Below are positions 4,808 to 9,336 of a stretch of 64,000 nucleotides of DNA, in pieces; positions within the stretch are counted from its first letter, which is position 1, and each line of letters begins with the position of its first letter. The stretch comes from Gemmatimonadaceae bacterium (GTDB lineage: Bacteria; Gemmatimonadota; Gemmatimonadetes; Gemmatimonadales; Gemmatimonadaceae): contig JADKJT010000017.1 in the NCBI GenBank assembly GCA_016720905.1, positions 24,366 through 88,365 on the forward strand. The letters run 5' to 3'. The translations under genes and the position numbers were made by a program. The notes below the pieces were generated by a model. It was given only the letters and a program-made list of their open reading frames with translations, made no database searches and was not told the DNA's origin.

Positions 4808-4810
4808 CTC

Positions 4811-4885
4811 AGAACTCAGTACCTAGTACTCAGTACCTGGTACTAGGTACCAGGTACTTGGTTCTAGGTATTAGGTACTTGGTTC
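4811..4885. repeat. GTAC-rich heptad repeat forming a long imperfect hairpin (eno-ftsB intergenic region)
   Basis: About 11 degenerate 7-nt units (AGGTACT/TGGTTCT/AGGTATT and their complements) that switch polarity around the palindrome CCTGGTAC-TAG-GTACCAGG. Seven GTAC tetramers within 60 nt. I counted 30 G+C in 4811-4880 (42.9%), against much G+C-richer flanks. Confidence 0.7.
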
Positions 4886-5306: not shown

Positions 5307-5380
<74 letters not shown>

Positions 5381-5466: not shown

Positions 5467-5540
5467 GGCAGGGTAGCTCAGCTGGTCAGAGCGCACGACT
5501 CATAATCGTGAGGTCGGGGGTTCGAGCCCCCCCCCTGCTA
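5467..5540 (+). tRNA. tRNA with CAT anticodon (elongator tRNA-Met, or tRNA-Ile2 if lysidine-modified)
   Basis: 74-nt cloverleaf. Acceptor GGCAGGG/CCCTGCT (G1-U72 wobble), D arm GCTC-AGCTGGTCA-GAGC, anticodon arm CACGA-CTCATAA-TCGTG, T arm GGGGG-TTCGAGC-CCCCC. Met and Ile2 identity cannot be separated by eye. Confidence 0.85.
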
Positions 5541-5632
5541 CTTAGCTAAAACATTGACAAGTAAGCATGCCACGAAGGCAAAGTTGGCGTCGCGGTGCAC
5601 CGGACTTGGAACCCGTCGGACGCAAACGGCGG

Positions 5633-6469
5633 TCACCTTCTGGATCGATCGGGGCCATCGGCGCGCGACCTGTCAATCGCGTTGAACAGCAGGTCGGTTC
5701 GCACGCCAACGACCGTCCGCAGTGACTTACTGTGCTCAATGAATATCGCCACCAGTCGAGGCGGCGCCACGTTGCCGATGTCGACGATTCCGGGGAGTGA
5801 GAACATGCCGCCGCCACTCACACCATTGAGACTGCGCGGCGTCTTCACTCCGTCGCCGATCCACACATCGTCGTGAGGGAAGTCGACCACCAAATGCGTG
5901 CGCGGATCGACCTTGGCACGGGCATACGCGTCGTCCGCGCTGGACAGGCCGGTAAACGGCACCTTTTCTGGGTGCGTTCGACGCTCGGACGCGACGTAGT
6001 TCGTTCCATTGAGCGGATACCCGACGGTGACCACCGGCATTCCTCGTCCGTTCGTCCGGAGGAATGATCCGCCAACACTGGTCGCAGTGGCATCCAGAAA
6101 CGTGCAGTTGTCGAGTGTTTCGGCCGTCTCAGCGTCGATTTCCGTGAATGCCAAATCGAAGGCGTCCGGGCGCAAGTTGGAGTCGGCCCCGACGAGACTG
6201 ATCCATGGTGAACGAATCTCCTGCCACTTTGTGTCCGTGCCGATGTGCACAAAACGATCAGTGTGACTTGCCACGGCGTGATCCGCAGTCACCAGATAGC
6301 GGCGTCCGCGATGCCAGAGTAACACGCAGGATCCCGTTCCCTCCATCCCTCGGAGGCTCTCGGGGACAACCCCCAACGGCCTTACGCTCTGGATGAGCCG
6401 CGCTTCGTGCACCTTCCACCGCGCTTCGCAGTGGTCAAAGAATTCCTTCTCGTTCGAGAGGGGCCACAT
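5633..6469 (-). CDS. trypsin-fold (S1/Trypsin_2-like) serine protease, no signal peptide
   Basis: 278 aa. Catalytic triad motifs occur in the canonical order: His in LVTADHAV, Asp in DLAFTEID, Ser in NGVSGGGMF. The N-terminus (MWPLSNEKEFFDHCEARW) is not signal-like. Third codon positions are visibly more A/T-rich than in neighbouring core genes. Confidence 0.7.
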   Translation of the reverse strand: MWPLSNEKEFFDHCEARWKVHEARLIQSVRPLGVVPESLRGMEGTGSCVLLWHRGRRYLVTADHAVASHTDRFVHIGTDTKWQEIRSPWISLVGADSNLRPDAFDLAFTEIDAETAETLDNCTFLDATATSVGGSFLRTNGRGMPVVTVGYPLNGTNYVASERRTHPEKVPFTGLSSADDAYARAKVDPRTHLVVDFPHDDVWIGDGVKTPRSLNGVSGGGMFSLPGIVDIGNVAPPRLVAIFIEHSKSLRTVVGVRTDLLFNAIDRSRADGPDRSRR

Positions 6470-6481
6470 ACGTTCGCGCCC

Positions 6482-6715
6482 TCAGAAGGTCCAGGCCCAG
6501 TGCACGAAGCGGACGAGTGCGAAGAGGGCGCCGAGAATCAGGACGAGACACGCGATGATGACGCCACCCAGCACCGTCTTGGTCTCTGCAGACTCATCGC
6601 TGCCACCACCGAAGTAGGCCACCACTCGGCCGATCACCCAGGCAGAAAAATAGAGTGCCATGCCGATGACGCAGACGACGATGAGCCATGGCTTCCACTC
6701 GTCGGGAATTCTCAT
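6482..6715 (-). CDS. 77-aa two-transmembrane miniprotein, co-transcribed with the protease
   Basis: The internal ATG at 6715 of ORF 6482..7018 gives MRIPDEWKPWLIVVCVIGMALYFSAWVIGRVVAYFGGGSDESAETKTVLGGVIIACLVLILGALFALVRFVHWAWTF. That is two clear hydrophobic helices separated by a G/S/E loop. The part of the ORF upstream of this ATG is not protein-like. The stop lies 12 nt before the protease start. Confidence 0.5.
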   Translation of the reverse strand: MRIPDEWKPWLIVVCVIGMALYFSAWVIGRVVAYFGGGSDESAETKTVLGGVIIACLVLILGALFALVRFVHWAWTF

Positions 6716-7435
6716 TTCACCCTGCCAACGCTGAGGGAAGTCACGATTGTGCGAACCGCCATAACATGGCAGGAACCGACGCGTTCTGCAGGCGGCTGCG
6801 AGCGCGTTGCCACGATGACGGATGCCGTGCGCGGCGCCGACGGTGCTGGGGATGCGGTGCGGTGCCGTTGGCGAACTCCGGCACCGGGCGGCTTGGCTCC
6901 AAATCCAATTCGCAGGGCATCGGCGCGCGTCGAGCGAATGGCGCCCAGACCGTTCGGGCGTTTGCACCTGCTTGTGTCCCTGTGGCGTCGCGATCATCAC
7001 GAGTGAGGCGCCGCCCAAGGCCGCCGCGCTTCAGAATCCCTCGAACGTGAGATCCGTGAGTTCCGCGATCTCGTCGATGGTTGTCTCGTCAACGCCTTCT
7101 GGTACGTCGATGTCCATCGCACCATGGCGCGCGCACCGGCAAGCGCAAAGTCGAATCGGCGCCAATTGGAAGCGAAATCGGCCGGATTTGGTCGGAATCT
7201 GGTTAAATAAGGGCGACGAACGGCGATTTCTGTAATGTGAAACTCGGTCTGCGGGTCTCCGCATTGAAAATCAGTGAAGAACCTACGAGGCAGGGGGGTG
7301 CCCCTAACGAACTTCCCCGAGGAGCGACAAGATAGCCATCCCAATCAAGGCCTCATGCCCCACGGTCGAATTGCGGTGAAATGCGTCAGCTGCTCCGGGG
7401 AAAGAGCTTGATCGAATCACGTCATCCCTAATTCC

Positions 7436-8566
7436 ATGCTGCGTCTTAGTACGGCAGGGGCGAGAATGAGATTTGCAACACTGTTGAGTCTGCTAGCCTT
7501 TTGTGCCTGCGGAGGAGGGAACGGCGATAGCACAACGCCGAGCCCTGTACTTTCTGTGCTCACAATTGATCTACAATCGAACTCAATACCCGTGGGTACG
7601 TCATCGACAGCGACGGCTTATGGACGCGATCAGAATGGTGCATCGATTGCCACGGGCGTGGTGGCGTGGTCTGCATTGCCAGCGACCGTGGCTTCTGTGA
7701 GCGCTGGCGGAGTCGTCACGGGATTGAGTGTCGGGACGGCCGTGATTACTGCGTCTGTTAGAGAGCTGAGCGCGTCGGTTGGCGTCGCCGTCACGCCTGC
7801 GCCGATCGCAACTATCGCGGTTTCGTTCGCCTCTCCGTCCATCACGGTGGGAACAACCACAAACGCAACGGCCGTCGCTCGCGATGCGGGAGGAAGCACC
7901 CGATCCGGACGAGTATTTGCGTGGAGTTCGGCGAACACCGCGGTAGCCACTGTGAACATCGTAACAGGTGTCATCAACGCTGTTGGACCAGGGGTTGCCA
8001 ACATCTCGGCGAGCAGCGAAGGGCGGGTGGGGTTGGCCACGCTCACGGTGTCCCCCGTACCTGTGGCGACGGTCGCGGTGGTTGTCGGAACCAATCCGCT
8101 TGATGAAGGCCTTAGCACCCTCGCATCAGCGATCGCACGCGACGCGGGAGGGAATGTCCTGTCGGGTCGAACGGTAACCTTTACCAGCAGTGATCCCACA
8201 GTTGCATCCGTGCACCCCGCGAGCGGCGAGATCATTGGCGTGACGGCCGGCACGACTACGATCACGGCGCAATGCGAAGGTCGCAGTGGCACTGTCCCAC
8301 TCGTCGTGCGGCCCGTGGCAACGCGCCTGGTCGTCGCAACCGCGCCGTCGGGCGACTCACCTTCTCGACAGACGCTGGCGATTCAACCGCGAGTTCAACT
8401 CACAAGCAGAACCGGTTTGCAAGTGCCACAGTCTGGAGTACCCCATGACAGCCTCAATCACGCTCGCAACACTGTCGGGAACAACAACTGTTTTCACGGA
8501 CGCCGCAGGGATCGCGCAGTTTGCGACTCTTGCCGTGGGGTGGGAGGGTGGGCGACAAGACGATGA
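7436..8566 (+). CDS. bacterial Ig-like (Big_2) repeat surface lipoprotein, N-terminal part (frame broken near 8441-8444)
   Basis: Lipoprotein signal (MRFATLLSLLAFCACGG). Four Big_2-type repeats (VASVSAGGVVTGLSVGTAVITASV, ATVNIVTGVINAVGPGVANISAS, ASVHPASGEIIGVTAGTTTITAQ). The last ~40 codons (HDSLNHARNTVGNNNCFHGRRRDR...) are not protein-like, while the protein-like sequence continues in another frame. Confidence 0.7.
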   Translation: MLRLSTAGARMRFATLLSLLAFCACGGGNGDSTTPSPVLSVLTIDLQSNSIPVGTSSTATAYGRDQNGASIATGVVAWSALPATVASVSAGGVVTGLSVGTAVITASVRELSASVGVAVTPAPIATIAVSFASPSITVGTTTNATAVARDAGGSTRSGRVFAWSSANTAVATVNIVTGVINAVGPGVANISASSEGRVGLATLTVSPVPVATVAVVVGTNPLDEGLSTLASAIARDAGGNVLSGRTVTFTSSDPTVASVHPASGEIIGVTAGTTTITAQCEGRSGTVPLVVRPVATRLVVATAPSGDSPSRQTLAIQPRVQLTSRTGLQVPQSGVPHDSLNHARNTVGNNNCFHGRRRDRAVCDSCRGVGGWATRR

Positions 8567-9336
8567 CCTTCACGGCCACCGGGCTGTCGGGTGCCAGTGC
8601 GAATGTCACACTCACAGCGGGCTTGCCTACGTCTATCACTGTCGTCGCGGGGAACAGTCAAACCGCGACGATTGGCACGGCGGTGCCGGTTGCACCGTCC
8701 GTTCGAGTAACAGATCTCGACGCCAACTTCGTGACGGACCGACTCGTCACCTTCGCGGTCACGGGAGGTGGAGGTTCGCTCACTGGAGCGAATCAGTTCA
8801 CAGATGATGTGGGTGTAGCGCGCGTCGGGACATGGATACTTGGGACGACCACAAGCGGAAACGCCATGACCGCAAACGTCGGCTCGCTTGCGGGGCCTGC
8901 GTCACTGTTCACCGCGACGGGGACGGGGCGCCCGGCGTCCTGCGGGGTGACCGTGTTCATGACCGTCGACATTATGACGGCTGCTACACTCTCTGCGAGT
9001 CCATGCTTACTACAAAACGCTCCAACCTTTATGATCGGCGGCAATCCGTTCTTCGGATCTCAGGGAGGCGGCACGTACTTCTATGATCGCTACCTAATCG
9101 ACATCCCCGCTGGGGCGATTGTGCGGTTTGAGGTGACAGAGTCGTTCAGCAACAACGGGTTCGGGTACTTCGCCGCGTACATGGAGTCTGGAGCCTTTGT
9201 TGCCTACGAAGCCGGGTTCGGTGCGCTGACTGTGAACAACAACTCTGCAGCGGTTCGGCGATACCAGATCATCCTCACGGCCTCAGGCTCCGGAGTCACC
9301 GGTGCCTACACGATGTTGCCAAGGAGGATTCTGTGA
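8521..9336 (+). CDS. C-terminal part of the same Ig-like surface protein (Ig-like repeat plus PPC-like beta domain)
   Basis: MTFTATGLSGASANVTLTAGLPTSITVVAGNSQTATIGTAVPVAPSVRVTD is Ig-like. The tail (YDRYLIDIPAGAIVRFEV...YQIILTASGSGVTGAYTM) resembles a pre-peptidase C-terminal type domain. ATG 8563 overlaps the upstream stop (ATGA). Continuity through frame-0 ORF 8286..8807 suggests a single gene. Confidence 0.6.
   Translation: MRLLPWGGRVGDKTMTFTATGLSGASANVTLTAGLPTSITVVAGNSQTATIGTAVPVAPSVRVTDLDANFVTDRLVTFAVTGGGGSLTGANQFTDDVGVARVGTWILGTTTSGNAMTANVGSLAGPASLFTATGTGRPASCGVTVFMTVDIMTAATLSASPCLLQNAPTFMIGGNPFFGSQGGGTYFYDRYLIDIPAGAIVRFEVTESFSNNGFGYFAAYMESGAFVAYEAGFGALTVNNNSAAVRRYQIILTASGSGVTGAYTMLPRRIL

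What the first reader, a model, noticed from the sequence alone, without database searches (positions are those of the whole stretch)
5633..7117. tRNA-adjacent two-gene module: signal-less trypsin-fold protease coupled to a 77-aa two-TM miniprotein (possible conflict or abortive-infection-type effector pair)
Seen: a 77-aa ORF (6482-6715) lies on the minus strand, right after the tRNA(CAT) pair. It consists of little more than two hydrophobic helices and ends 12 nt before a 278-aa ORF. That ORF has His/Asp/Ser motifs in trypsin order (TADHAV, DLAF, GVSGGG) but no signal peptide or TM segment. Both genes use visibly more A/T at third codon positions than the flanking core genes. About 300 bp of apparently non-coding DNA (6716-7030) and a possible 28-codon highly acidic ORF (7031-7117, MDIDVPEGVDETTIDEIAELTDLTFEGF, no convincing SD) lie upstream.

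Established: housekeeping trypsin-fold proteases in bacteria (the HtrA/DegP type) are normally exported. Cytoplasmic stand-alone trypsin-like proteases are typically found as effectors in phage-defence and other conflict systems, and tRNA genes are classic insertion hotspots.

Inference: the pair may be a small acquired toxin/effector module (membrane sensor or pore plus protease), or a peptide-processing cassette if the acidic mini-ORF is real. I recognise no described system with this composition.
Basis: partly seen in the sequence, partly recalled or inferred. Interest (0 to 1): 0.68.

Follow-up and report, generated by a model that had tools for sequence, protein, structure and literature searches.

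The report
Orphan membrane miniprotein beside accessory trypsin-fold protease
Next to two tRNA-Met genes, a Gemmatimonas-like genome carries a small acquired operon encoding a cytoplasmic trypsin-fold protease from a large uncharacterised family plus a two-helix membrane miniprotein, but the miniprotein is an orphan rather than a conserved partner, so the "two-gene system" is not established.

Summary
There is a 278-aa ORF (5633-6469, minus), a 77-aa ORF (6482-6715, minus) 12 nt upstream of it, and two tRNA-Met(CAT) genes.

The large protein is a true trypsin-fold serine protease. Its AF2 model matches only S1/PA-clan proteases, and His64/Asp105/Ser218 are conserved in 71-72 of 72 relatives. 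It has no signal peptide, TM segment or PDZ domain.

It belongs to a large unnamed family of about 270-aa single-domain proteases (2,193 representative clusters at E<=1e-10). Sampled members sit on plasmids, next to IS elements and recombinases, and next to restriction or other defence genes. They share no conserved neighbour.

Synteny with a relative ends exactly at the second tRNA, and that relative carries a VapBC-like pair there. The site is therefore a variable hot spot.

The miniprotein is a predicted helical hairpin with coding-like codon composition. Its only homologue lies in one roughly 97%-identical copy of the module, where codon 10 is a stop. None of the other independent family loci, about ten in all, has such an ORF.

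The "coupled effector pair" is therefore unproven, and the acidic mini-ORF and the A/T-rich third-position claim are not supported. This is a new member of a known kind, of modest interest.

The parts
5633..6469 (-). 278-aa cytoplasmic single-domain trypsin-fold (PA clan, Trypsin_2-like) serine protease with catalytic His64, Asp105 and Ser218 (GVSGGG). The true start is the ATG at 6469. The source annotation's 213-aa version starts at Val66 and lacks the catalytic His.
   Evidence: ORF. Triad invariant in alignments A1, A3 and A4. AF2 model has pTM 0.75, and all top Foldseek PDB hits are S1 proteases such as uPA, tPA, thrombin, HtrA1, DegS and DegQ, at E about 1e-6. The profile aligns the His and Asp regions to HtrA. 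38 of 72 relatives hit Pfam Trypsin_2. Homology to relatives starts near Arg17, which supports the long ORF.
6482..6715 (-). 77-aa ORF predicted to form a two-helix transmembrane hairpin with an acidic GGGSDESAETKT loop. It is lineage-specific (orphan) and its functional status is uncertain.
   Evidence: ORF. Two TM segments by hydropathy. AF2 helices 7-36 and 43-76, pLDDT 80. Coding-like GC1/2/3 of 0.58/0.45/0.77. Annotated in the source record (P0198). Its only homologue is P0009 on L006, where codon 10 is TAG. No Pfam, PADLOC, NCBIfam or PHROG family.
6470..6484 (-). Junction between the two ORFs. The mini-ORF TGA stop (6484-6482) overlaps a GAGG Shine-Dalgarno-like motif (6483-6480) that lies 9-10 nt before the protease ATG. 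The two ORFs are in the same reading frame (..WTF*GRERMWPLS..).
   Evidence: Sequence and translation through the junction. The junction is identical in L006.
6716..6741 (-). 26-nt conserved leader of the module, with an AGGG SD-like motif. 6741 is the upstream boundary of the DNA shared with the second copy, L006. Beyond it the two contexts are unrelated.
   Evidence: Pairwise DNA alignment and BLAST of L006 against the window.
5467..5541 (+). Second tRNA-Met(CAT). Its 3' end is the point where synteny with a related genome stops, which makes it the hot-spot boundary. The first tRNA-Met is at 5307-5380.
   Evidence: ARAGORN and Rfam. BLASTN of L022 and L021 against the window ends at 5540 and 5502 (L021 ends with its contig); L022 continues with an RHH/PIN-like pair.
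6742..7435 (.). About 700 bp with no recognisable gene or RNA, including the doubtful 28-codon acidic ORF at 7031-7117. It is not part of the conserved module. It is probably an intergenic or decayed region shared with the divergent Big_2 lipoprotein gene at 7436.
   Evidence: No coding-like frame. No Pfam, PHROG or Rfam hit. RNA fold z = +1.41 for 6716-7030. No sigma-70-type promoter match. No homology to L006.

Best explanation
A roughly 1.1-kb accessory cassette (window 5633-6741, minus strand) has landed in a variable hot spot immediately 3' of the tRNA-Met pair of a Gemmatimonas-like chromosome.

Shown:
- Its main gene encodes a catalytically competent, cytoplasmic, single-domain trypsin-fold serine endopeptidase.
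- This protein belongs to a large, unnamed, sporadically distributed family of about 270-aa stand-alone proteases.
- Sampled family members travel with plasmids, IS elements and recombinases, and often sit beside restriction or other defence genes. They have no conserved partner gene.
- The 77-aa two-helix membrane ORF upstream is a lineage-specific add-on. It moves with this particular protease copy but is not a component of the family's system.

Inferred:
- The protease acts on its own as a conflict or addiction-type effector, for example an abortive-infection-like protease activated by an invader or by stress. In that case specificity or latency must reside in the protease itself, perhaps in its N-terminal helix.
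- If the miniprotein is expressed, it most plausibly tethers or modulates this copy at the membrane and is produced by translational coupling.
For: Fold and catalysis:
- Foldseek hits against PDB and against viral proteins are all PA-clan proteases.
- The triad is conserved in 71-72 of 72 relatives.
- The family profile aligns the His and Asp regions to HtrA.
- 38 of 72 relatives hit Trypsin_2.

Cytoplasmic and single-domain:
- No hydrophobic N-terminus, and lengths cluster at 260-290 aa.

Family size:
- 4,132 representatives at E<=1e-3, 2,193 at E<=1e-10 and 294 at E<=1e-30.

Accessory and mobile character:
- Synteny with L022 breaks at the tRNA 3' end, with a VapBC-like pair at the same site.
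- A roughly 97%-identical copy (L006) has a completely different upstream context.
- Homologues lie next to IS110, IS21, IS5, a recombinase, a Y1 transposase, ParE/RelB, and a relaxase with T4SS genes.
- Homologues also lie next to:
  - type I R-M plus AlbA_2 (PDC-S50) and HNH (L007);
  - a type IV restriction enzyme, E 1e-99 (L012);
  - Mrr_cat (L010);
  - HmaB/HmaC (L017);
  - PDC-S19 (L014).

No conserved partner:
- All-vs-all BLASTP of neighbours finds nothing shared between independent loci.
- No upstream 2-TM ORF in any locus except L006.

Miniprotein is an orphan:
- Its 90% cluster has 2 members among about 15 billion proteins, and no other homologue was found.
- Scans of metagenome and viral contigs were negative.

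Coupling:
- The stop overlaps the SD, and the spacer is 12 nt.
Against: - No experiment and no quantitative defence-island enrichment. The association rests on about ten independent contexts.
- In the window itself there are no defence genes or integrase within about 18 kb. Neighbours are tRNAs, Big_2 lipoproteins, amidohydrolases and GH20.
- No att-type direct repeat of the tRNA end, so the mode of acquisition is unknown.
- A sensor-less, constitutively encoded cytoplasmic protease needs some latency mechanism, and none was identified.
- The conserved boundary just upstream of the mini-ORF (6741) and its coding-like composition argue that the miniprotein may matter more than an "add-on" would.
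- L006 is a 957-bp short-read contig and could be chimeric or carry errors.
Confidence: 0.55

Rival explanations
1. The pair is a genuine two-component effector module. One version: the protease cleaves the upstream membrane miniprotein to unleash or disable a membrane-damaging peptide, following the logic of the Pepco/Trypco-, EACC1- or gasdermin-protease modules. The other version: the hairpin is the membrane sensor or anchor that controls the protease.
For: - The small gene sits immediately upstream of the protease, as in Pepco/Trypco- and MBL-protease modules (bioRxiv 10.1101/2025.11.14.688446; PMC7159879; PMC12799240).
- The stop overlaps the SD, which suggests translational coupling.
- The two genes are carried together in the only other copy, with the shared DNA starting 26 nt before the mini ATG.
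- Coding-like GC3, and conservative TM substitutions with pN/pS 0.38.
- One family member (P0153, 407 aa) is a natural fusion of two N-terminal TM helices to the protease.
- Kaur et al. note trypsin-like peptidases fused to TM segments in conflict systems.
Against: - None of the about ten independent loci of homologues has such an ORF.
- The miniprotein has no homologue outside one near-identical copy.
- That copy has W10->stop.
- No Trypco, EACC1 or other family match, and no sequence similarity to the P0153 extension.
- No sensor domain anywhere in the locus.
- The pN/pS estimate rests on only 11 substitutions.
Confidence: 0.2
2. The 77-aa ORF is not a functional gene. It is a decaying or fortuitous ORF in the 5' leader, and the locus is simply a solitary accessory protease gene.
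For: - Orphan status.
- Premature stop in L006 while the protease ORF there stays intact over the 151 codons available.
- Nucleotide divergence is higher in the mini-ORF (11 differences in 234 nt) than in the protease (12 in 453 nt).
- Long spurious ORFs are common in this GC-rich DNA.
- Other family members function without it.
Against: - GC3 of 0.77 with GC2 of 0.45 is the pattern of real genes here.
- The strongly hydrophobic, Arg/Pro-poor composition is unlike spurious GC-rich ORFs, and AF2 predicts a confident helical hairpin.
- In L006 a 59-aa product from Met19 would still contain both hydrophobic segments.
- SD-like motifs are positioned for both genes.
Confidence: 0.2
3. Peptide-processing (RiPP-like) cassette. 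The acidic 28-codon ORF (7031-7117) encodes a precursor or leader peptide that the protease matures and the 2-TM protein exports or provides immunity against.
For: Acidic, leader-like composition of MDIDVPEGVDETTIDEIAELTDLTFEGF, with GC1/2/3 of 0.62/0.31/0.69. This is a resemblance only.
Against: - The ORF lies outside the segment conserved with L006 and about 315 bp from the operon.
- No convincing SD.
- No modification enzymes or transporter nearby.
- No family hit.
- No homologue of the protease family shows such a neighbour.
Confidence: 0.03
4. Housekeeping HtrA/DegP-type quality-control protease.
For: The weak profile match of the N-terminal half to mycobacterial HtrA1 (E about 0.01) and the structural matches to HtrA1, DegS and DegQ reflect the shared fold.
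Against: - No signal peptide or TM segment, and no PDZ domain.
- Absent at the syntenic site of a relative.
- Its 90% cluster has a single member while the neighbouring enolase has 7.
- Closest relatives are at most 37% identical and scattered over unrelated contexts.
Confidence: 0.02

Closest known systems
Trypsin_2 (PF13365)-type bacterial S1 serine peptidases, PA clan
   Same: Double beta-barrel fold. His-Asp-Ser in trypsin order with a GxSGG nucleophile motif. 38 of 72 relatives hit the Pfam model.
   Different: The window protein itself is too divergent to hit any Pfam, NCBIfam or PADLOC model. The family has a characteristic N-terminal helix and is a compact stand-alone protein of about 270 aa, without PDZ, signal peptide or sensor domains.
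Protease-activated small pore-forming effectors (Pepco/Trypco1-2, EACC1) encoded directly upstream of defence proteases (Kaur et al. 2020, PMC7159879; Evans et al. 2025, bioRxiv 10.1101/2025.11.14.688446)
   Same: Gene order: a small non-enzymatic protein lies immediately upstream of a trypsin-like protease. A membrane-directed small partner is plausible.
   Different: - The known small proteins form beta-barrel or beta-rich pores and are soluble pro-forms. Here the small protein is an alpha-helical 2-TM hairpin with no family match.
- The known proteases are fused to sensors (Avs/STAND, VMAP, FGE and others). Here there is no sensor.
- The known pairs co-occur and co-evolve. Here co-occurrence fails.
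Lamassu with a protease-type LmuA effector (PADLOC PDLC03855)
   Same: 32 of 72 relatives give weak hits (best E 3.5e-8) to this model through the shared trypsin-like domain.
   Different: Only profile positions about 14-161 of 425 match, which is the protease domain alone. The window protein does not hit. The rest of the LmuA profile is unmatched and no LmuB/LmuC genes are nearby.
HtrA/DegP/DegS (MEROPS S1C)
   Same: Fold, and local sequence around the catalytic His and Asp.
   Different: No export signal or anchor, no PDZ domain, and not syntenic or housekeeping.
tRNA-flanking integration hot spots and genomic islets
   Same: Synteny with a relative ends exactly at the tRNA 3' end, and each genome carries different accessory cargo there: the protease module here, a VapBC-like pair in the relative.
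   Different: No integrase within about 18 kb downstream of the tRNAs (the core genes upstream of them stay syntenic with the relative) and no direct repeat of the tRNA 3' end. The islet is only 1-2 kb (up to 4 kb if the Big_2 genes belong to it).

Membership tests
PA-clan (S1, Trypsin_2-like) serine peptidase | Chymotrypsin-type double beta-barrel fold | tested here: met
   AF2 model has pTM 0.75. The top 50 Foldseek PDB hits are all S1, HtrA or 3C-type proteases, prob 1.0, E 1e-6 to 4e-5. Viral library hits are S39 and trypsin-like proteases.
PA-clan (S1, Trypsin_2-like) serine peptidase | Catalytic His, Asp and Ser in that order, with Ser in a GxSGG motif, conserved in relatives | tested here: met
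   H64, D105 and S218 are invariant in A1. They are present in 71/72, 72/72 and 72/72 sequences of A3.
PA-clan (S1, Trypsin_2-like) serine peptidase | Match to the curated family HMM (PF13365 or PF00089) | tested here: inconclusive
   The window protein has no Pfam hit even at E<=1. 38 of 72 relatives hit Trypsin_2 and 9 hit Trypsin at E<=0.01. The profile-to-PDB search gives HtrA at E about 0.01.
HtrA/DegP housekeeping proteases (S1C) | N-terminal signal peptide or membrane anchor (periplasmic or extracytoplasmic location) | tested here: not met
   Maximum 12-residue hydropathy in the first 50 aa is 1.03 (family median 1.03). No 19-residue TM-like window.
HtrA/DegP housekeeping proteases (S1C) | One or two C-terminal PDZ domains | tested here: not met
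   The protein ends about 10 residues after the protease domain. No PDZ hit.
Protease + small pore-forming pro-effector modules (Pepco/Trypco, EACC1) | The small partner belongs to the Trypco1/Trypco2 (Pepco) or EACC1 families | tested here: not met
   No such Pfam hit for the 77-aa protein at E<=1. The predicted all-alpha hairpin differs from the beta-barrel or beta-rich proteins described in the paper (paper).
Protease + small pore-forming pro-effector modules (Pepco/Trypco, EACC1) | The small gene is directly adjacent to the protease gene (typically upstream) | tested here: met
   12-nt spacer, same strand, upstream.
Protease + small pore-forming pro-effector modules (Pepco/Trypco, EACC1) | The pair co-occurs and co-evolves across genomes | tested here: not met
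   Apart from the near-identical copy L006, none of the 15 other loci with upstream sequence (about ten independent contexts) has an upstream TM mini-ORF. No shared neighbours.
Protease + small pore-forming pro-effector modules (Pepco/Trypco, EACC1) | The protease is fused to, or operonic with, a sensor (STAND/Avs, VMAP, Hachiman, Lamassu and others) | tested here: not met
   Single-domain 278-aa protein. The flanks are tRNAs and a Big_2 lipoprotein gene.
Protease + small pore-forming pro-effector modules (Pepco/Trypco, EACC1) | The protease cleaves the small protein and thereby activates toxicity | not testable with these tools
   Requires biochemistry and genetics.
Lamassu (protease-type LmuA) | Full-length LmuA (the remaining ~260 positions of the 425-position PADLOC model beyond the protease domain), plus LmuB (SMC-like; known to me from the literature, not tested here) in the operon | tested here: not met
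   The window protein has no PADLOC hit. Relatives match only profile positions about 14-161 of 425. No large ATPase gene is adjacent.
tRNA-associated integrated genomic island | Synteny with relatives breaks at the tRNA 3' end | tested here: met
   The L022 alignment ends at window 5540. Different cargo follows in L022.
tRNA-associated integrated genomic island | Integrase gene and a flanking direct repeat of the tRNA 3' end (attL/attR) | tested here: not met
   No second copy of the 22-nt tRNA 3' end within 3 mismatches in 64 kb. Only a 73% inverted partial match at 7283-7308. No integrase among the ORFs up to about 24 kb.

The most novel reading that the evidence does not exclude
The 2-TM hairpin and the protease form a minimal, sensor-less membrane-protease conflict module. 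It would take one of two forms.

Form 1: a protease-gated alpha-helical membrane toxin, an all-alpha analogue of the Pepco, EACC1 and gasdermin logic.

Form 2: a split or readthrough form of a membrane-anchored protease. The two ORFs are in the same frame, separated only by TGA plus four codons. One family member is a natural 2-TM-protease fusion.

More broadly, the family of about 270-aa stand-alone proteases (more than 2,000 clusters) could be an unrecognised single-gene defence or abortive-infection family.
Probability: 0.13. Interest if true: 0.55.

Novelty: new member of a known kind. Interest (0 to 1): 0.3.

Why it matters
Protease-licensed cell-death effectors are emerging as a common logic in bacterial immunity. 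So far they have been described with sensor-fused proteases and conserved partner proteins.

This locus points to a large, unnamed family of compact, sensor-less, cytoplasmic trypsin-fold proteases that circulate on mobile and defence-rich DNA without any fixed partner. If these are autonomous defence or addiction genes, they would be among the simplest protease-based conflict systems.

The specific protease-miniprotein pairing seen here is restricted to one lineage, so on present evidence it does not define a new system.

Practical by-products:
- The source annotation truncates the protease so that it lacks its catalytic His.
- The tRNA-Met 3' flank is a variable hot spot in this Gemmatimonas-like lineage.

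Tried and rejected
Protein family scans
- Direct Pfam, NCBIfam, PADLOC and PHROG scans of both proteins gave nothing usable.
- A single-sequence search against PDB sequences gave only spurious fimbrial hits.

Collection scans
- Alignments A3 and A4 were too diverse for the search for related loci.
- Genome contigs was scanned with A5 and with the single protease, and no relatives were confirmed. The source genome is not retrievable there.
- Metagenome contigs was scanned with the miniprotein and with A5, without result.
- Viral contigs was scanned with A5 and with the miniprotein, without result.
- An exact look-up of the window's own protease (the 213-aa annotated form, P0001) and of its miniprotein found no contig on record.

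Hypotheses rejected
- HtrA-like housekeeping protease: rejected for lack of signal peptide, PDZ domain and synteny.
- Lamassu-protease: rejected because only the protease domain of the LmuA model matches, and only in relatives.
- IetAS: I did not test IetS directly. From my own knowledge IetS is subtilisin-like; the paper excerpt calls it only a serine protease. The IetA-like ATPase in L007 is 3 kb away on the opposite strand.
- Integron-cassette or att-site boundaries: no attC-like or direct-repeat signature was found.
- A structured RNA or riboswitch in 6716-7030: rejected, with z = +1.41 and no Rfam hit.
- The L006 upstream ORF has no counterpart in the window.
- There is no sequence similarity between the miniprotein and the TM extension of P0153.
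Full report
**1. What is in the sequence**

On the minus strand, ORF 5633-6469 encodes 278 aa with T-A-D-H64-A-V, D105-L-A-F and G-V-S218-G-G-G. ORF 6482-6715 encodes 77 aa (MRIPDEWKPWLIVVCVIGMALYFSAWVIGRVVAYFGGGSDESAETKTVLGGVIIACLVLILGALFALVRFVHWAWTF). A 12-nt spacer separates them. Two tRNA-Met(CAT) genes lie at 5307-5380 and 5467-5541 on the plus strand, convergent with the protease gene.

The mini-ORF stop (TGA, 6484-6482) overlaps a GAGG motif 9-10 nt before the protease ATG. An AGGG motif precedes the mini ATG. The two ORFs are in the same reading frame, reading ...WTF*GRERMWPLS....

The organism is Gemmatimonas-like. The window's enolase clusters at 90% identity or more with a MAG Gemmatimonas sp. 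protein.

**2. The protease**

No Pfam, NCBIfam, PADLOC or PHROG model matches it directly. A word-indexed search found only seven relatives, but His64, Asp105 and Ser218 were invariant among them.

An AlphaFold2 model built on that alignment (pLDDT 68, pTM 0.75) matches only S1/PA-clan proteases in the PDB. These include uPA, tPA, thrombin, HtrA1, DegS, DegQ and viral 3C, at E about 1e-6 to 1e-5 and probability 1.0. In the viral structure library it matches S39 and trypsin-like proteases. The family profile aligns the GS..V....Y.VTAaHV and D.A. regions to mycobacterial HtrA1 at E about 0.01.

An exhaustive profile search shows that the family is large. There are 4,132 representative clusters at E<=1e-3, 2,193 at E<=1e-10 and 294 at E<=1e-30. 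Almost all are single-domain proteins of 260-290 aa.

In a 72-sequence alignment:
- the triad is present in 71/72, 72/72 and 72/72 sequences;
- no member has a signal-peptide-like N-terminus;
- only P0153 has an N-terminal extension with TM-like segments. Two others (P0045, P0076) reach the hydropathy threshold within or near the protease domain, which I read as core beta-strands;
- 38 of 72 members hit Pfam Trypsin_2;
- 32 of 72 weakly hit the PADLOC LmuA model PDLC03855, but only over its N-terminal protease domain, profile positions about 14-161 of 425.

So the "signal-less trypsin-fold protease" is confirmed, and it is neither an HtrA/DegP type nor a Lamassu protein.

Homology to relatives begins around Arg17. 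The ATG at 6469 is therefore the real start. The source annotation's 213-aa product (P0001) starts at Val66 and would lack the catalytic His.

**3. Accessory nature and the tRNA hot spot**

A related genome fragment, L022 (about 80% nucleotide identity), keeps the order PlsC, enolase, DivIC, tRNA-Met, tRNA-Met exactly up to window position 5540. After that it carries an RHH/PIN-like (VapBC-like) pair instead of the protease. The tRNA 3' flank is thus a variable site.

I found no integrase and no direct repeat of the tRNA end. The next 18 kb encode ordinary metabolic or surface proteins.

Base composition is not distinctive. GC3 is 0.72 for the protease and 0.77 for the miniprotein, against 0.755-0.787 for flanking core genes.

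**4. Context of relatives**

About ten independent loci were examined:
- Paraburkholderia (L001, L002): IS21 and a recombinase.
- L003: HNH, a Y1 transposase and ParE/RelB.
- L004, L005: IS110.
- L007-L009: a type I R-M system, then an AlbA_2 protein (PDC-S50), then the protease, then an unknown gene, then HNH.
- L010: Mrr_cat upstream.
- L011-L013: a type IV methyl-directed restriction enzyme nearby (E 1e-99).
- L014-L016: an AlbA_2/PDC-S19 protein downstream.
- Plasmids of Rhizobium (just downstream of HmaB/HmaC genes), Diaphorobacter (IS5, IS110), Agrobacterium (between the relaxase and T4SS genes) and Hymenobacter (metal-resistance genes).

All-vs-all comparison of the neighbours finds no protein shared between independent loci. 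The family therefore behaves as a solitary accessory gene that often sits in defence-rich or mobile DNA. This association is qualitative and was not tested statistically.

**5. The miniprotein**

Evidence that it is a real gene:
- Hydropathy predicts two TM segments.
- AlphaFold2 predicts two long helices (7-36 and 43-76, pLDDT 80).
- Its GC1/2/3 pattern (0.58/0.45/0.77) is that of real genes in this genome.
- It is annotated in the source record.

Evidence that it is not a conserved partner:
- Its 90% cluster has two members among about 15 billion proteins.
- The only other homologue, P0009, lies on L006, a 957-bp contig that is a roughly 97%-identical copy of the module.
- In that copy codon 10 is TAG. 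The gene caller therefore reports a 59-aa product from Met19.
- The other differences are five synonymous and five conservative replacements, giving pN/pS 0.38. The protease gives 0.26 over 151 codons. Both estimates rest on about a dozen substitutions.
- No upstream same-strand ORF with two TM segments exists in any other homologue locus.

The DNA shared by the window and L006 begins sharply at window 6741, 26 nt upstream of the mini ATG. Beyond that point L006 carries a truncated, unrelated Trypsin_2-like ORF. So the mini-ORF and the protease travel together in this lineage, but only in this lineage.

One distant family member, P0153 (407 aa), has two N-terminal TM helices fused to the protease. 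It has no sequence similarity to the miniprotein. This is a weak "Rosetta-stone" hint that membrane tethering can occur in the family.

**6. The upstream region**

The stretch 6742-7435 shows no coding-like frame, no Pfam, PHROG or Rfam hit and no sigma-70-type promoter match. The 6716-7030 part was folded as RNA and shows no excess structure, z = +1.41. The 28-codon acidic ORF is outside the conserved segment and lacks support. The peptide-processing idea is rejected as unsupported.

**7. Comparison with the literature**

Small proteins encoded immediately upstream of trypsin-like or caspase-like defence proteases are known to be protease-activated pore formers. Examples are Trypco1/2 (also called Pepco) and EACC1. 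MBL nucleases and alpha/beta-hydrolases are protease-activated zymogens.

In those systems the protease is fused to a sensor such as Avs/STAND, VMAP, HamA or LmuA, and the pairs co-occur and co-evolve (PMC7159879; bioRxiv 10.1101/2025.11.14.688446; PMC12799240).

The present locus shares the gene order and, conceivably, the logic. It fails three membership features:
- the small protein is not in any of those families;
- there is no sensor;
- there is no co-occurrence.

**8. Conclusion**

Shown:
- An accessory cassette at a tRNA-flanking hot spot encodes an intact, cytoplasmic, single-domain trypsin-fold protease of a large uncharacterised family with mobile and defence-island associations.
- An orphan two-helix membrane ORF is physically coupled to it.

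Inferred:
- The protease is an autonomous conflict or addiction-type effector.
- The miniprotein is, at most, a lineage-specific tether, modulator or substrate.

The finding is a new member of a known kind. Interest is modest at 0.3. There is a roughly 13% chance that the pair, or the family, represents a new minimal protease-membrane system.

Noticed in passing
window 6467-6490 (minus strand): The mini-ORF and the protease ORF are in the same reading frame, separated only by TGA plus four codons (..WTF*GRERMWPLS..). The junction is identical in L006. TGA readthrough, or an ancestral fusion, would give a 2-TM-anchored protease of about 360 aa. The chance of a shared frame is 1 in 3.
   Followed up: partly
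window 5633-6274 vs 5633-6469: The source annotation (P0001, 213 aa) starts the protease at Val66 (GTG), just after the catalytic His64. Family alignments show homology from about residue 17, so the annotated start is almost certainly wrong.
   Followed up: yes
L022:2520-3096 (JGI 3300049437), equivalent to window position 5541 onward: A related genome carries an RHH-type antitoxin-like gene at the same tRNA-Met 3' flank, followed by what looks like the start of a PIN/VapC gene. The site holds different accessory cargo in different relatives.
   Followed up: partly
L006:1-261: In the second copy of the module, the DNA upstream of the shared segment encodes the N-terminal part of a different Trypsin_2-like protease (..GFATGFLVAHGLLMTNQHVL..). 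It is truncated at the junction. This is either a recombination scar between two protease genes or a chimeric short-read contig.
   Followed up: partly
P0153 (407 aa, from the representative library): The only one of about 185 retrieved family members with an N-terminal extension. The extension contains two predicted TM helices fused to the protease domain.
   Followed up: partly
L007:4819-5943 and L014:1457-2416: SLFN_AlbA_2-domain proteins (PADLOC PDC-S50 and PDC-S19) lie directly next to protease homologues in two independent loci, upstream in one and downstream in the other. The two proteins did not match each other in BLASTP, so this may be a defence-island coincidence.
   Followed up: partly
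window 7283-7308 and 7200-7600: An inverted, 73%-matching partial copy of the tRNA-Met 3' end (with a C/G run) lies in a local GC trough (0.535) just upstream of the Big_2 gene. It may be chance or a relic of an old rearrangement at the hot spot.
   Followed up: partly
window 7436-9336 (+): Two overlapping ORFs (376 aa with a lipoprotein-like signal and Big_2 repeats; 271 aa) have atypical GC3 of 0.60-0.70. The first has an out-of-frame-looking C-terminus. This may be one frameshifted surface-protein gene, and perhaps also part of the variable region.
   Followed up: no
window 4810-4866: A near-perfect palindrome just after the enolase stop gives spurious miRNA-family hits on both strands. It is most likely a bidirectional terminator hairpin.
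   Followed up: no
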